This document shows, one piece after another, positions 15,531 to 18,928 of a stretch of 64,000 nucleotides of DNA. Position numbers and translations under genes: made by a program. Positions within the stretch are counted from its first letter, which is position 1. Each line of letters starts with the position of its first letter. The stretch covers positions 913,432 through 977,431 of the forward strand of contig JAHPZH010000001.1 of assembly GCA_019058315.1 (NCBI GenBank), read 5' to 3'. The DNA comes from Candidatus Helarchaeota archaeon. Its GTDB lineage: Archaea; Asgardarchaeota; Lokiarchaeia; Helarchaeales; RDOG01. The notes beneath the pieces were generated by a model, which made no database searches, was not told where the DNA came from, and saw only the letters and a program-made list of their open reading frames with translations.

Positions 15531-15805
15531 GGAAAATAAATACGAATTGGGTGAAAAATTAGGGCATTTAGAGAGCGGAGATAGATCTACATATTATAAT
15601 TTATTCCATGGCATTTCAAGGACCCTAAATTTTAGACAATTACTGAAAGGTGATAAATCTATCTCTTCTAGCATGTTCATTTCAATTTAAGTAATTGGAT
15701 TAAAAAGATGATAATTTTTAATTTACGAGAATAAATTTTAGAAATATTGATATATTTGTTTTAAAATATTTAATCTAGATAAGATTTATTTCTTATTTTT
15801 TTATT

Positions 15806-16042
15806 ATGTATCTTGGGTATGAGAAATTGTTTGAGGAATTCGAGAAAAGAAAATACCATATTAACCGACCACCTCCCACTGATATGTCTGACTTTATTTT
15901 AATAGAAAAGAAAGAAGTGGATGACTTTAGATGTGGGGAGTGCGATGGGATAATGTATTTATCTATATACTATTGTTCTTCTCCCAGTAGATATATTAAG
16001 CATTTTAAATGTTCAAAATGCGATTTAGAAACTTGGAGATAA
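15806..16042 (+). CDS. Small zinc-ribbon protein
   Basis: CGEC...CSKC pair. Confidence 0.6.
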   Translation: MYLGYEKLFEEFEKRKYHINRPPPTDMSDFILIEKKEVDDFRCGECDGIMYLSIYYCSSPSRYIKHFKCSKCDLETWR

Positions 16043-16269
16043 ACTTTTTAATCAAACTTACATTTGATTTTTGATAGAAATTGTTATATTTGATTATAAA
16101 CACAAAACTCTAAAATTTTATATTATCAATTATCTAATTTAATTAGAAATATTTTAATAAAAAGAAGTTATTAGAGATTAAAGAATTTATACTACTTTTT
16201 TTTATTAAACAAAGATGTAGTTATAAAAAAATATTATCATTCTAGATTTAAAATTATCGAGGTAGAAGA

Positions 16270-16776
16270 ATGAAATTAGTCGAATTAGCGAAGAAAGCAA
16301 TAAGCCTACTTCAAGAAGCTGGTGATAAAGGTTTCAACAACATTGACCTAGCTCAAAAACTTCATATGCCTAGAAGAAGAGTATATGATATTATTGCTAT
16401 TCTAAGGGCTGCAGGATTAGTTGAAGCCAAAAGAGAAAAGGGTGGCACAAGAATAAAATGGAGCGGTATACCTGTTGTTAGTGAGGTTAAGCCAGACTCA
16501 AGTGTAAGCCCCGATCTAATGGATAAATTAAATAAAGTTACTCAAGAAAAGAACGAATTAGAGTCGCAATTAGATGAATTGAAAGATAAAGTATCGAAAT
16601 TAAAAGAAGAACAAGAAACCTCTACCATGGAAGTTAGTACTAGCAAGACGAAATTCGAGGTTCAAAAAATCAGCATAAAAACATTAAAATCCGCAAAAAT
16701 TACTAAAGTTCAGACATCACCTATTGAAATCGTTCTAGAAGCAGATAAAAAGGGATTTGTTATAGAACCTGGATAG
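16270..16776 (+). CDS. E2F/DP-family winged-helix DNA-binding protein with coiled coil
   Basis: RRRVYDIIAILRAAGLVE...IKWSG matches the E2F/DP signature RRxYD...GLI...I.W.G; heptad coiled coil and beta-rich tail follow; GAGGT SD. Confidence 0.8.
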   Translation: MKLVELAKKAISLLQEAGDKGFNNIDLAQKLHMPRRRVYDIIAILRAAGLVEAKREKGGTRIKWSGIPVVSEVKPDSSVSPDLMDKLNKVTQEKNELESQLDELKDKVSKLKEEQETSTMEVSTSKTKFEVQKISIKTLKSAKITKVQTSPIEIVLEADKKGFVIEPG

Positions 16777-16806
16777 ACTTATTTAATTGTATACTTGAGA
16801 TTTTTT

Positions 16807-17193
16807 CTATTCACGATCAATAATAATTGTAGTTCCAGCTTTCGCTTTTGATTTTAATAGGTCTAGATTTTCAGTAATTTTACCTATTACATTTACTTCT
16901 GAGTAGGGCTCAATCTTTTCTAAAAAGATGCAAATGCCATCTCCCAATGGCCAATAAGCGATTTCGCCTTCCTCAATGTCCATGGTCGGTTTTTCCCGCC
17001 CCCTCTTAATGCCTATACCTTGAATATATATTTCTTTTTCTTTGTATATGCTCATTCTGTCTTGAATAGGTAAGATATCCCAAATGGCTTCAGCAGTTAA
17101 AGGATTTTTTACTCTTTGAAAAATTCCCTTGACTGTTTCAGATTCTCCTGGAATCTTAATTATTATTTTATAAACTACACTCAACTTAATCAA
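16807..17193 (-). CDS. Cyclophilin-like fold protein (TM1367/DUF369-like)
   Basis: NPLTAEAIWDILP, GEIAYWPLGDGICIF, VNVIGKI. Confidence 0.75.
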   Translation of the reverse strand: MIKLSVVYKIIIKIPGESETVKGIFQRVKNPLTAEAIWDILPIQDRMSIYKEKEIYIQGIGIKRGREKPTMDIEEGEIAYWPLGDGICIFLEKIEPYSEVNVIGKITENLDLLKSKAKAGTTIIIDRE

Positions 17194-17204
17194 CTTCCAT
17201 AAAT

Positions 17205-17402
17205 TTATCCTTTTAGGAATCGATATTGGACCAAACGATCCATAACTTCAACAATTTTTCGTTCAATTTTATTCTTTTCAATTTCATAGTCATCTTCAGA
17301 AATCTCATTTCTAGATTTTATATTTTCTAATTTTTCCATTTCGTTTATTAATTTCTGTTTCTCCTTCTCCATTCTTTTGATTTCGCCTTCTATTGATACC
17401 AT
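17205..17402 (-). CDS. Small coiled-coil protein with SHOCT-like motif
   Basis: LENIKSRNEISEDDYEIEKNKI resembles L...G.I(S/T)EEEY...K. Confidence 0.6.
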   Translation of the reverse strand: MVSIEGEIKRMEKEKQKLINEMEKLENIKSRNEISEDDYEIEKNKIERKIVEVMDRLVQYRFLKG

Positions 17403-17480
17403 GAGATTTCTTCCAATTTCAATATATTATATGATATCATAACTATCTATTTTAATTTAAAATTATGAATTATCAAAATA

Positions 17481-17500
17481 TTTAAACTTTCGCGCACGAA
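17481..17500 (+). promoter_or_regulatory. TATA-like box (TTTAAA) immediately followed by E2F-consensus site TTTCGCGC
   Basis: tttaaac-tttcgcgc-acgaa in the divergent spacer 17403-17550; ttcgcgcacgaa is also an imperfect palindrome. Confidence 0.45.
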
Positions 17501-17550
17501 TGTAATATAACCAAAAAAAATTTAAAATCTTTGATTTCGGAGTTGAAAAT

Positions 17551-17913
17551 TTGGAAAAAGAGGACGAAAAAGTCCTAATACAGTTTATTTATAAAGACAA
17601 TACCAAGAAATCTCTATTAATTCCACCTGATCATGCAAAAGAACTCGAGATTCTAGCAATTACTGGAGTACCAAGAAGAATCATAAAGGCAATTTTACGA
17701 ATCGGAAAAATATTTTTAGATCGCAAAGGTGAAGTAAATAAAAATGATGTCCTTTCACCCTCGAGGAGTGGAGATCTTTACAATGCCTTAAATTATCTAA
17801 TTAAAGAGAAAATAATCGAAAAAAATAAAGATAGAAAGACTTTAAAAGTTATTGATTTAGATAAACTCAATTCTTTACTATCTGAATTAAAAGATTTAGT
17901 ACGAGAAAAATGA
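17551..17913 (+). CDS. Hypothetical protein with C-terminal winged helix
   Basis: GGAG SD + TTG; SGDLYNALNYLIKEKIIEK...LKV wHTH pattern. Confidence 0.55.
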   Translation: MEKEDEKVLIQFIYKDNTKKSLLIPPDHAKELEILAITGVPRRIIKAILRIGKIFLDRKGEVNKNDVLSPSRSGDLYNALNYLIKEKIIEKNKDRKTLKVIDLDKLNSLLSELKDLVREK

Positions 17914-18075
17914 TCATTCTCATTTTATAATTTTTAGAATAAAATACTGGTTTTTAATTCATATAATTAGAAATTAAAATATACAAACGGATTCTTTGGA
18001 TATTATCCACATATTCTCTACCAAAATAAAGTCTTGATAATCAACTAAAATTAAATTACATATGAGGAAGCAAAA

Positions 18076-18652: not shown

Positions 18653-18928
18653 TTGCCTGAAGATCTGAATAAAGAAAAAGAACGTTTAATTAAAGCTAAA
18701 GAGAGTTTTATAAAAAAAATATTAGAAAATAAGACTGAAGCTCTATTAGCAAAAAAATATTACTCCGAAATTGAAGAATTAATTAAAACAAAGAAATGCA
18801 TCTCCATTGATGAGGTCTCAAAAAGGTTAAATCTGAATAACACTGATGTAAGGACTATTTTTGAAGAACTCATATTATATAATGTTGTTTCTGGGAAAAT
18901 AGAAAAAGATCAATTGATTTTAGATTAA
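18653..18928 (+). CDS. Small PCI-like winged-helix protein
   Basis: ISIDEVSKRLNL...VRTIFEELILYNVVSGKIEK matches the PCI wHTH consensus ISL..LA..L.L....VE..L..LI..G.I.GKID. Confidence 0.6.
   Translation: MPEDLNKEKERLIKAKESFIKKILENKTEALLAKKYYSEIEELIKTKKCISIDEVSKRLNLNNTDVRTIFEELILYNVVSGKIEKDQLILD

What the first reader, a model, noticed from the sequence alone, without database searches (positions are those of the whole stretch)
16270..16776. Archaeal E2F/DP-like transcription factor with apparent full DBD-coiled coil-marked box architecture
Seen: ISLLQEAGDKG...RRRVYDIIAILRAAGLVEAK...IKWSG, then a heptad coiled coil (DKLNKVTQEKNELESQLDELKDKVSKLKEE) and a ~45-aa beta-rich tail. Established: eukaryotic E2F/DP cell-cycle factors use an RRxYD recognition helix in a winged helix ending in I.W.G, followed by coiled-coil and beta-stranded marked-box dimerisation domains (E2F4/5 recalled as SLLQEA...RRIYDITNVLEGIGLIEK...IQWKG). 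Inference: a minimal, probably homodimeric ancestor-like E2F/DP without transactivation or Rb-binding tail. I cannot check how far Asgard E2F homologues are already described.
Basis: partly seen in the sequence, partly recalled or inferred. Interest (0 to 1): 0.88.

Follow-up and report, generated by a model that had tools for sequence, protein, structure and literature searches.

The report
Known Asgard E2F-like factor, self-pairing tail
This Helarchaeales (Asgard archaeon) gene encodes a small relative of the eukaryotic cell-cycle factor E2F; the family is already published, but its second half looks like a self-pairing E2F-type module that the literature says is missing, and E2F-like GCGCG sites are conserved in nearby and replication-gene promoters.

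Summary
Window 16270-16776(+) is a 168-aa ORF. Its residues 3-66 match Pfam E2F_TDP (39.3 bits, cut-off 25.7), and RRRVYD is invariant in 30 homologues.

It is not new as a family. Eme et al. 2023 (Suppl. 4.1.5) describe Asgard E2F/DP homologues, and their table lists a 92%-identical Helarchaeales protein. This scan has also met the family on other genomes.

That paper says the homology stops at the DNA-binding domain and that a dimerisation domain is lacking. My evidence partly contradicts this:
- Eukaryotic E2Fs align without a break through the coiled coil.
- A confident model of residues 78-168 has E2F/DP CC-MB chains as its six best PDB matches, all weak (E 0.2-2.6).
- Language-model features of the tail alone point to E2F_CC-MB clusters.
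- A homodimer prediction passes (0.45 against 0.00 for the controls).
- Profile comparison of the tail alone is not significant.

On function, an invariant TGCGCG core sits beside a TATA box in the promoter of the linked 65-aa/cyclophilin-like genes in 10 of 10 loci. In a sister clade that promoter heads the E2F-like gene's own cluster. The same TCGTGCGCGA is conserved upstream of an RPA/SSB-like gene.

The most likely reading is a homodimeric E2F-type regulator that binds GCGC-core operators. Binding itself is inferred, not shown.

The parts
16270..16776 (+). E2F/DP-like gene, 168 aa plus stop
   Evidence: ORF. Pfam E2F_TDP 39.3 bits. 30 homologues at 42-92% identity.
16276..16467 (+). Winged-helix DNA-binding domain (residues 3-66). 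The recognition motif R35-R36-R37-V38-Y39-D40 is at 16372-16389 and W64 lies in the wing.
   Evidence: alignment to E2F4 RRIYD...IQWKG. Invariant columns. Fold.
16510..16620 (+). Coiled-coil / leucine-zipper helix (residues 81-117). L97, L104, V108 and L111 lie in the predicted dimer contact.
   Evidence: Helix. Interface residues 24, 27, 31, 34-35 of the 78-168 construct. Continuous alignment to eukaryotic E2F coiled coils.
16645..16773 (+). Conserved beta-rich tail (residues 126-168, four strands), a marked-box-like dimerisation module
   Evidence: pLDDT 92-95. Conserved K126, F129, K143, I144, I152, E153, G162, E166, P167. Foldseek top hits are E2F/DP CC-MB chains. Intermolecular strand pairing.
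16146..16167 (+). Conserved AT-rich block (GAAATATTTTAATAAAAAGAAG) upstream of the gene, probably its TATA/promoter. It holds no GC-rich element.
   Evidence: Invariant block in the alignment of four orthologous loci
16807..17193 (-). Cyclophilin-like gene (PF04126), convergent with the E2F-like gene
   Evidence: Pfam 69 bits. Adjacent to the E2F-like gene in 29 of 29 Asgard loci examined and in all Helarchaeales-type loci (not in L015).
17205..17402 (-). 65-aa coiled-coil protein gene, first gene of the 65-aa/cyclophilin-like unit
   Evidence: ORF. Conserved position.
17488..17499 (.). Conserved GC-rich operator-like element. The + strand reads TTTCGCGCACGA, which contains the canonical E2F word TTTCGCGC. 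The - strand reads TCGTGCGCGAAA, with an invariant TGCGCG core. It abuts the TATA-like AAATATTTAAA at about 17476-17486.
   Evidence: Invariant in four loci. The TGCGCG core sits in the same position in 10 of 10 loci from two clades. TTTCGCGC occurs only 10 times in 5.8 Mb.
17551..17913 (+). 120-aa gene transcribed divergently from the element. It is a possible AF_0843-family / wHTH-like protein and a rival candidate binder.
   Evidence: No Pfam hit. ESM-feature hit to an AF_0843 cluster at 0.92. Linkage conserved.

Best explanation
The gene encodes a member of the published Asgard E2F/DP family (Helarchaeales). It is a small sequence-specific transcription regulator.

Shown:
- The N-terminal domain is a true E2F/DP-type winged helix with the base-contacting RRxYD helix.

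Inferred from predictions:
- The protein forms a homodimer through a short leucine zipper (residues 81-117) and a four-stranded beta tail (126-168). The tail interleaves with the tail of the second copy, giving a miniature counterpart of the E2F-DP coiled-coil/marked-box module. There is no DP partner and no Rb-binding tail.

Inferred from comparative genomics and the known specificity of the E2F family:
- The two recognition helices read a GCGC-core site.
- The best candidate site is the conserved TCGTGCGCGA(A) element that abuts the TATA box between the 120-aa gene and the 65-aa/cyclophilin-like unit. A bound dimer there would interfere with, or assist, TBP/TFB recruitment.
- In the sister clade this promoter precedes a co-directional 66-aa/cyclophilin-like/E2F-like gene cluster, which would make the factor autoregulatory if the cluster is one transcript.
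- The same 10-mer is conserved upstream of an RPA/SSB-like replication gene.
For: - **Family membership.** Pfam E2F_TDP scores 39.3 bits against a cut-off of 25.7. The best PDB sequence hit is E2F4. RRRVYD is invariant. A 92%-identical orthologue is listed as E2F/DP in Eme et al. 2023.
- **Coiled coil.** A profile search aligns eukaryotic E2F_TDP+E2F_CC-MB proteins without a break through the coiled coil.
- **Tail fold.** The model of residues 78-168 has pLDDT 86.8. Its six best Foldseek hits among 350,542 PDB chains are all E2F/DP CC-MB chains: 5tuv_A, 5tuv_D, 2aze_B, 2aze_A, 5tuu_A and 5tuv_B, at E 0.22-2.6. ESM features of residues 78-168 and of 120-168 alone rank E2F_CC-MB clusters first, at 0.76-0.78.
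- **Anchored HMM test.** The true tail adds +2.38 bits against 58 eukaryotic E2Fs. Shuffled tails add +1.28 ± 0.62, and 1 of 30 shuffles reaches the observed value.
- **Homodimer.** ipSAE is 0.45 against 0.00 for the best of 3 controls. The mark was reached by 20 of 30 solved one-chain pairs and by 1 of 23 single chains. The runs agree in at least 73% of contacts and partner pLDDT is at least 72. The pass may partly reflect likeness to solved E2F-DP complexes. The genome holds one E2F_TDP gene.
- **Linked operator.** The TGCGCG core lies next to the TATA box in 10 of 10 loci from two clades, and the rest of the spacer has diverged in the sister clade.
- **Second site and genome counts.** CGTGCGCG occurs 4 times in intergenic DNA and once in coding DNA, against 0.10 expected in intergenic DNA. 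TCGTGCGCGATT upstream of the RPA/SSB-like gene is invariant in 3 genomes whose proteins are 60-100% identical. SGCGCS words are the only GC hexamers relatively enriched in AT-rich spacers.
- **Family-level support.** TTGGCGCGAAA or TGGCGCCAAAA lies upstream of MCM in 21 of 37 Asgard loci against 2 of 27 non-Asgard loci. The embedded Arg codon is CGC in 28 of 32 cases, against a background of about 8%.
Against: - No direct binding or dimerisation data exist.
- Profile-profile comparison of the tail against 58 eukaryotic marked boxes is not above controls (score 11.4; 21 of 200 column shuffles reach it, and the reversed tail scores higher).
- hhalign aligns only the coiled coil, at 46.6% probability.
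- Structural matches are weak: Foldseek E is at least 0.2, VIA-align gives Z 4.2 with rmsd 11.9 Å, and all ESM scores are under 0.9.
- The conserved element could be bound by the always-linked 120-aa protein or could be a special BRE.
- The E2F-like gene's own upstream region in the window clade has no GC-rich element.
- The exact 11-mer is unique in the genome.
- GCGCG words upstream of MCM, histone and HDAC genes in this genome were not shown to be conserved. E2F-bearing genomes G203-G206 of the same order lack GCGCG upstream of MCM.
- The Thorarchaeota MCM-upstream motif overlaps the last codons of the upstream gene.
Confidence: 0.6

Rival explanations
1. This is an E2F/DP-type DNA-binding domain, as published, but the coiled coil plus beta tail is a lineage-specific archaeal oligomerisation module unrelated by descent to the eukaryotic CC-MB. 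The resemblance is convergent, or trivial (a helix followed by a beta meander).
For: Eme et al. [quoted passage not shown] The tail profile against the eukaryotic marked box is not above shuffled controls. There is no Pfam E2F_CC-MB or DP match among the best 25 families. All structural scores are weak. The tail is about 45 aa, shorter than eukaryotic marked boxes.
Against: The six best of 350,542 PDB chains are all E2F/DP CC-MB chains. The tail alone retrieves E2F_CC-MB clusters first out of 7.7 million clusters. The spacing from winged helix to coiled coil matches eukaryotic E2Fs. The anchored test shows a small positive signal.
Confidence: 0.3
2. The conserved TGCGCG element is not the E2F-like protein's site. 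It is the operator of the divergently encoded 120-aa (AF_0843-like, possibly wHTH) protein, or a GC-rich BRE read by a TFB paralogue. The E2F-like protein binds elsewhere.
For: The 120-aa gene flanks the element in all 10 loci, and divergent regulators often autoregulate. ESM features link it to a family in which one related cluster carries HTH_IclR in 30% of its members. The element sits directly 5' of TATA, where BRE lies. In the window clade the E2F-like gene is not downstream of this promoter.
Against: The core (GCGCG; TTTCGCGC in the window) is what E2F/DP RRxYD helices are known to read (Zheng et al. 1999, from memory; Eme et al. 2023 Suppl. 4.1.5). Only 4 intergenic CGTGCGCG sites exist, too few for a general BRE. 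Canonical TTTGGCGCGAAA-type words lie upstream of MCM in Asgard lineages that carry the E2F-like gene.
Confidence: 0.3
3. It is a generic archaeal wHTH regulator (TrmB/MarR/ArsR-like), and its E2F resemblance is superficial.
For: Foldseek of the full model returns only generic wHTH proteins such as ArsR, MarR, RPC39 and Z-alpha. There are weak Pfam TrmB and HTH_11 hits.
Against: E2F_TDP is the only Pfam family above its cut-off, by 13.6 bits. E2F4 is the best PDB sequence hit. The archaeal profile retrieves hundreds of eukaryotic E2Fs. RRxYD is invariant.
Confidence: 0.03

Closest known systems
Asgard archaeal E2F/DP homologues (Eme et al. 2023, Nature 618:992, Suppl. Information 4.1.5; ESP table, arCOG02749)
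   Same: It is the same family. The table lists Helarchaeales_CR_Bin_143 (my P0001, the gene in locus L002), which is 92% identical over 168 aa, and Hel_GB_A (P0014). It shares the conserved winged helix with its base-contact residues.
   Different: The paper says these proteins lack a dimerisation domain and that homology stops at the DNA-binding domain. Here the C-terminal 90 residues are conserved, are confidently modelled as helix plus beta tail, resemble E2F/DP CC-MB most closely among known structures, and are predicted to homodimerise. The paper gives no target sites or gene neighbourhood.
Eukaryotic typical E2Fs (E2F1-6; Pfam E2F_TDP + E2F_CC-MB; structures 1CF7, 2AZE, 5TUU/5TUV)
   Same: It has an RRxYD winged helix, then a coiled coil at the same distance, then a beta-rich region. 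The candidate sites have a GCGC core (TTTCGCGC in the window).
   Different: It has 168 aa against 300-800. It lacks the N-terminal arm, the DP partner (one gene, so a homodimer) and the pocket-protein-binding transactivation tail. The tail is about 45 aa and has no significant sequence match to the marked box.
DP proteins (Pfam E2F_TDP + DP; DP1/DP2)
   Same: The RRRVYD motif is identical to the DP type as I recall it. One ESM-Atlas shape match is a eukaryotic E2F_TDP cluster in which 12% of members carry the DP family (TM 0.44).
   Different: The sequence match to DP2 is weak (E 0.17). No DP-domain match was seen, and none of the listed profile hits that I scanned carried the DP family.
Atypical E2F7/8 / DEL proteins (two tandem E2F_TDP domains)
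   Same: They solve the 'two recognition helices on one site' problem without DP. They were retrieved by the archaeal profile.
   Different: They use two winged helices in one chain and have no CC-MB. The archaeal protein has one winged helix plus a dimerisation module.

Membership tests
E2F/DP winged-helix family (Pfam PF02319 E2F_TDP) | Profile match above the curated cut-off | tested here: met
   39.3 bits against 25.7, E 5.3e-10, residues 3-66. 40.2 bits in the genome search.
E2F/DP winged-helix family (Pfam PF02319 E2F_TDP) | RRxYD recognition-helix motif and conserved Trp in the wing | tested here: met
   R35-R36-R37-V38-Y39-D40 and W64 are invariant in 30 homologues and align to E2F4 RRIYD...IQWKG.
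E2F/DP winged-helix family (Pfam PF02319 E2F_TDP) | Sequence-specific binding to TTTSSCGC / GCGC-core DNA | not testable with these tools
   The support is indirect only: conserved TGCGCG/TTTCGCGC elements in linked and RPA-like promoters, and E2F-type words upstream of Asgard MCM genes.
E2F coiled-coil/marked-box dimerisation module (Pfam PF16421 E2F_CC-MB; PF08781 DP) | Profile match to E2F_CC-MB or DP | tested here: not met
   Neither family is among the 25 best Pfam families, which run to E about 0.06. hhalign against 58 eukaryotic CC-MB regions aligns only the coiled coil at 46.6% probability. The tail alone is not above shuffles.
E2F coiled-coil/marked-box dimerisation module (Pfam PF16421 E2F_CC-MB; PF08781 DP) | Coiled coil directly after the winged helix at E2F-like spacing | tested here: met
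   There are single continuous HMMER alignments from profile position 6 to about 115 in dozens of proteins that carry E2F_TDP+E2F_CC-MB. Residues 81-117 are helical.
E2F coiled-coil/marked-box dimerisation module (Pfam PF16421 E2F_CC-MB; PF08781 DP) | Beta-rich marked-box fold like the solved E2F-DP structures | tested here: inconclusive
   Foldseek ranks 1-6 are all E2F/DP CC-MB chains, but with E 0.22-2.6 and TM 0.28-0.39. VIA-align gives Z 4.2 with 81 residues aligned at rmsd 11.9 to 2aze_B. ESM features score 0.76-0.78. The anchored HMM gain is +2.38 bits, reached by 1 of 30 shuffles.
E2F coiled-coil/marked-box dimerisation module (Pfam PF16421 E2F_CC-MB; PF08781 DP) | Dimerises through the coiled coil plus inter-chain beta pairing | tested here: met
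   This is in silico only. Homodimer ipSAE is 0.45 against 0.00 for the best control. The mark was reached by 20 of 30 solved pairs and 1 of 23 single chains. Contact agreement is at least 73% and pLDDT at least 72. The interface comprises residues 24-35 and 46-90 of the construct. The pass may owe something to memory of E2F-DP structures.
Eukaryotic E2F-DP-Rb system | A distinct DP partner gene | tested here: not met
   There is a single PF02319 match in the 5.79-Mb genome, which is 94% complete. Most of the 201 sampled Asgard genomes with the gene have one copy.
Eukaryotic E2F-DP-Rb system | C-terminal transactivation / pocket-protein-binding region | tested here: not met
   The protein ends at residue 168, directly after the last beta strand. 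Homologues add at most about 20 non-conserved residues.
Asgard E2F/DP homologues (Eme et al. 2023, arCOG02749) | Orthology to proteins listed in that paper's ESP table | tested here: met
   The sequence of Helarchaeales_CR_Bin_143 JABXJV01000044_4 in supplementary file 5 is the sequence of P0001, which is 92% identical to the window protein and syntenic with it.

The most novel reading that the evidence does not exclude
Asgard E2F-like proteins are homodimeric forerunners of E2F-DP that already carried the coiled-coil/marked-box dimerisation module. They already controlled DNA-replication and chromatin genes (RPA/SSB-like, MCM, histones) through GCGC-core sites next to TATA boxes. On this reading the link between E2F and S-phase genes predates eukaryotes, with Rb, cyclin/CDK control and the E2F/DP duplication added later.
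Probability: 0.3. Interest if true: 0.88.

Novelty: new member of a known kind. Interest (0 to 1): 0.6.

Why it matters
E2F-DP-Rb is the core switch for entry into S phase in eukaryotes, and its origin is unknown. Published work lists Asgard E2F-like proteins but treats them as bare DNA-binding domains with unknown targets.

Two things would follow if the C-terminal half is a real homodimerising CC-MB precursor and the conserved GCGCG elements are its operators. The elements in question are the one in the linked promoter, the one upstream of the RPA/SSB-like gene, and the MCM-upstream words in Thorarchaeota. First, the architecture of E2F-DP would be explained by duplication of a homodimer. 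Second, the regulatory logic (E2F sites in front of replication genes) would become testable in vitro with a 168-aa protein and 20-bp probes.

If the sites belong to another factor, the gene remains an ordinary, already catalogued family member.

Tried and rejected
- **Full-length model against PDB.** Foldseek of the full-length model gave only generic wHTH hits. This does not discriminate between winged-helix families.
- **VIA-align wide search.** The search with the C-terminal model returned only long single helices at Z about 5, which is uninformative. E2F/DP chains did not appear there.
- **Profile comparison of the tail.** hhalign of the tail against the eukaryotic marked box gave no significant similarity.
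- **Regulon search with the exact motif.** The 11-mer TTCGCGCACGA is unique in the genome, with one intergenic one-mismatch site.
- **RPA-like gene in other families.** The upstream regions in G201-G206 (loci L058-L062) have no conserved GCGCG near the promoter.
- **Cyclophilin-like gene in Thor-type loci.** GCGCG was not found upstream. The 4 hits in 29 loci appear to lie in the coding sequence of the upstream gene, and these promoters carry a different conserved block.
- **Close-relative loci for the RPA-like gene.** The search for related loci found nothing in genome contigs or metagenome contigs.
- **Close-relative loci for MCM.** Only relatives at 55% identity or less were returned, so conservation of the MCM, histone and HDAC sites in the window's clade could not be tested.
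- **MCM upstream control.** None of the 19 loci from E2F-lacking f2/f3 genomes, nor G201, has a motif. E2F-bearing G203-G206 have none either, so there is no clean co-occurrence within the class.
- **Expression.** No RNA holder is listed for window 15700-18000.
- **RNA families.** Rfam found no family downstream of the two orphan CGTGCGCG sites.
- **120-aa protein.** It has no Pfam match and no PDB sequence match.
- **Literature.** Searches of the held library found only a review-level mention of Asgard E2F. The specific description is in the supplement of Eme et al. 2023.
Full report
**1. What is there**

Window 16270-16776(+) is an ATG-initiated 168-aa ORF. A GAGGT ribosome-binding site precedes it and is invariant in four orthologous loci. 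Residues 3-66 match Pfam E2F_TDP at 39.3 bits against a curated cut-off of 25.7. This is the only family above its cut-off; TrmB, HTH_11 and the rest fall below theirs. The best sequence match among solved structures is the E2F4 DNA-binding domain (1cf7_A, E 1e-4), followed by E2F8 and DP2.

AlphaFold2 with 30 homologues gives three parts:
- a winged helix (three helices, two strands);
- a disordered linker at residues 67-80;
- one long helix at 81-117 and four short strands at 134-167.

Modelled alone with 44 homologues, the C-terminal 91 residues reach pLDDT 86.8, with 92-95 in the strands.

**2. Whose gene it is, and whether it is known**

The genome (G000) is 5.79 Mb in 12 contigs, 30.5% GC and 94% complete. 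The closest proteins are labelled Helarchaeota, Hodarchaeota or Promethearchaeota.

E2F_TDP is found in 89 of 201 sampled genomes of the phylum and in 33 of 60 genera. There is nearly always one copy. It was not found in several whole families, among them 0 of 40 in f2, which belongs to the same class. The full-length layout (profile positions 1 to about 169) occurs in about 58 of those genomes.

A 2024 review already says that some Asgard genomes have E2F homologues. The primary description is Eme et al. 2023, Supplementary Information 4.1.5. It reports:
- homologues in most Asgard groups;
- conserved base-contact residues that suggest similar DNA motifs;
- no regulator-binding domains and no dimerisation domain.

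Their ESP sequence table contains Helarchaeales_CR_Bin_143. This is my P0001, encoded in locus L002, and it is 92% identical to the window protein. So the gene is a new member of a published family. Earlier follow-ups in this scan reached the same point on other genomes.

**3. Is the second half an E2F-type dimerisation module?**

Evidence for:
- (a) A profile of the archaeal family, searched against 1.84 billion representatives, retrieves 409 proteins. After the archaeal group come proteins that Pfam shows to be E2F_TDP+E2F_CC-MB. They align in one continuous stretch from profile position 6 to about 115. Six of them align to 156-158, through the tail.
- (b) Foldseek of the C-terminal model against 350,542 PDB chains ranks E2F5-DP1, E2F1-DP1 and E2F4-DP1 CC-MB chains in places 1-6, 9 and 17. 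The alignments span 89-110 columns and the other hits are unrelated.
- (c) ESM-Atlas features of residues 78-168, and of the tail 120-168 alone, rank E2F_CC-MB clusters first.
- (d) A shape search of the Atlas finds the protein's own archaeal family and a eukaryotic E2F_TDP/DP cluster.
- (e) In an anchored HMM test the true tail adds 2.38 bits against 58 eukaryotic E2Fs. Column-shuffled tails add 1.28 ± 0.62, and 1 of 30 shuffles reaches the observed value.
- (f) The homodimer prediction passes: ipSAE 0.45 against 0.00 for the best of three controls. The mark was reached by 20 of 30 solved one-chain pairs and by 1 of 23 single chains. The runs agree in at least 73% of contacts and pLDDT is at least 72. 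The interface combines zipper positions with pairing of segment 46-62 of one chain against strands 72-90 of the other.

Evidence against:
- All these scores are individually weak: Foldseek E is at least 0.2 with TM 0.28-0.39, VIA-align gives Z 4.2 at rmsd 11.9 Å, and the ESM scores are under 0.9.
- hhalign aligns only the coiled coil.
- The tail profile against the marked box is no better than shuffles.
- The dimer pass may partly be memory of E2F-DP structures.

I put homology of the module at about 55-60% and homodimerisation through it at about 70%.

**4. Surroundings and a candidate operator**

The order radical-SAM, 71/78 aa, E2F-like(+), cyclophilin-like(-), 65 aa(-), 120 aa(+) is kept in three relatives whose proteins are 71-92% identical.

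In a sister clade at about 49% identity the same genes are arranged 120 aa(-) | 66 aa(+), cyclophilin-like(+), E2F-like(+), CxxCxxCC(+). One further locus of that clade (L015) lacks these upstream neighbours and has no GCGCG upstream of the gene.

Across 29 loci from other Asgard families the E2F-like gene always lies next to a PF04126 cyclophilin-like gene, usually tail to tail.

A first-stage note on this window pointed to TTTCGCGC at 17488-17495, and I tested it:
- The word occurs 10 times in 5.8 Mb, and two of those lie in a GC-rich, probably rRNA, stretch.
- The block TTCGCGCACGA is invariant in the four window-clade loci.
- Read on the other strand, all 10 loci of both clades carry a TGCGCG core (CGTGCGCGAAA, TGTGCGCGCAA, TATGCGCGCGC or AATGCGCGCAC). 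It lies about 3-12 nt upstream of a TATA box that faces the 65/66-aa gene, in spacers that are otherwise diverged.
- In the sister clade this promoter would drive the cluster that includes the E2F-like gene if the cluster is one transcript. That would be autoregulation.

**5. Genome-wide signal**

- Among all GC-only hexamers, only the SGCGCS and GCGCGC words have a higher density in AT-rich spacers than in coding DNA (13 of 58 against a background of 3.4%, P about 5e-8).
- CGTGCGCG occurs four times in spacers and once in genes, against 0.10 expected in spacers.
- One of those sites, TCGTGCGCGATT, lies 69 nt upstream of a 302-aa OB-fold RPA/SSB-like gene that JGI calls 'replication factor A1'. 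It is invariant in two relatives whose protein is 75% and 60% identical.
- Of 28 genes facing the 26 AT-rich spacer sites with GCGCG, five are replication or chromatin genes: the only full MCM match, the RPA-like gene, two of ten histone-fold genes, and a histone deacetylase. The hypergeometric P is about 2e-5 for a category of 60 genes. The category was chosen after seeing the data. I could not test conservation of those sites.

**6. Support from other Asgard lineages**

- Among 80 MCM loci, a TTTSSCGC match lies within 300 nt upstream of MCM in 21 of 37 Asgard loci (mostly Thorarchaeota) and in 2 of 27 non-Asgard archaeal loci of similar GC (Fisher P 5e-5; relatives are not independent).
- The words are TTGGCGCGAAA, TTTGGCGCGCAAA and TGGCGCCAAAA, which are textbook E2F palindromes.
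- They lie in the last codons (W-R-E/Q) of the upstream gins-like gene, roughly 30-100 nt before the TTAAATA-type box nearest to MCM. This is a caveat.
- The Arg codon there is CGC in 28 of 32 cases, against about 8% CGC among Arg codons in the same loci. That argues for selection on the DNA itself.

**7. Mechanism and rivals**

The best reading is a homodimeric E2F-type regulator whose two RRxYD helices read a GCGC core beside TATA boxes. It would control the linked 65-aa/cyclophilin-like and 120-aa genes, control itself in the sister clade, and control at least one replication gene.

The main rivals are these:
- The tail is a convergent oligomerisation module.
- The element belongs to the ever-present 120-aa protein, or is a special BRE. 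That protein has no Pfam hit, and ESM features point to the AF_0843 family, one related cluster of which carries HTH_IclR in 30% of its members.

No RNA data were available.

**8. Verdict**

The family is already known. What goes beyond the literature is the dimerisation-module reading, the conserved neighbourhood and the candidate operators. These are predictions and need the simple biochemical tests listed under decisive next steps.

Noticed in passing
window 16807-17193 (-); loci L017-L045: A PF04126 cyclophilin-like gene lies next to the E2F-like gene in 29 of 29 Asgard loci from several families. It is usually convergent, and co-directional in one Helarchaeales-type clade. This may mark a functional partner, but binding was not tested.
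   Followed up: partly
L100-L157 (MCM loci of Thorarchaeota and other Asgard MAGs), about 105-300 nt upstream of MCM: Textbook E2F palindromes (TTGGCGCGAAA, TGGCGCCAAAA) are embedded in the last codons (W-R-E/Q) of the upstream gins-like gene. The Arg codon is CGC in 28 of 32 cases against a background of about 8%. The motif is present in 21 of 37 Asgard and 2 of 27 non-Asgard MCM upstream regions.
   Followed up: partly
G000:C5:184817-184828 (outside the window; locus L050): TCGTGCGCGATT lies 69 nt upstream of a 302-aa RPA/SSB-like OB-fold gene and directly 5' of a TATA-like run. It is invariant in two relatives (L069, L070).
   Followed up: yes
G000:C6:5912; C5:180919; C6:68474; C10:146193; C10:151501 (outside the window): GCGCG words in AT-rich spacers lie upstream of the only full-length MCM gene (CGCGC directly before TTAAATATTT), two histone-fold genes, a histone deacetylase and RNA polymerase subunit A'. 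Their conservation was not tested.
   Followed up: partly
window 17551-17913 (+): This 120-aa protein has no Pfam or PDB match. ESM features place it near the archaeal AF_0843 family (0.92), and one related cluster carries HTH_IclR in 30% of members. It is always divergent from the 65/66-aa gene across the conserved GCGCG element.
   Followed up: partly
L018-L045, about 30-90 nt upstream of the cyclophilin-like gene: Thor-type loci share a different conserved promoter block (CAATTAAGCCTTTGC ... ACATTTTAGG) and have no GCGCG there.
   Followed up: no
L270-L272 (G203, G205, G206), upstream of MCM: A conserved ATCGCAC(A/G)TGA(C/G)TTTAAATA block lies directly before the TATA box of MCM in three E2F-bearing genomes of the same order. 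It may be a diverged operator.
   Followed up: no
window 18653-18928 (+): This 91-aa protein reaches the Pfam PCI-domain cut-off (22.6 bits against 22), in line with another first-stage note about PCI-like microproteins nearby.
   Followed up: no
G000:C5:251093 and C5:732896 (loci L055, L056): Two further CGTGCGCG sites are followed by TATA-like runs, with no clear downstream ORF and no Rfam family. An 88-aa ArsR/MarR-like wHTH gene lies 160 nt from the first site.
   Followed up: partly
L270-L275 (MCM loci of G203-G206, G104, G135): The MCM open frames there are 1210-1362 aa, and only the N-terminal 380-430 residues match. This suggests intein-containing or otherwise interrupted MCM genes.
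   Followed up: no
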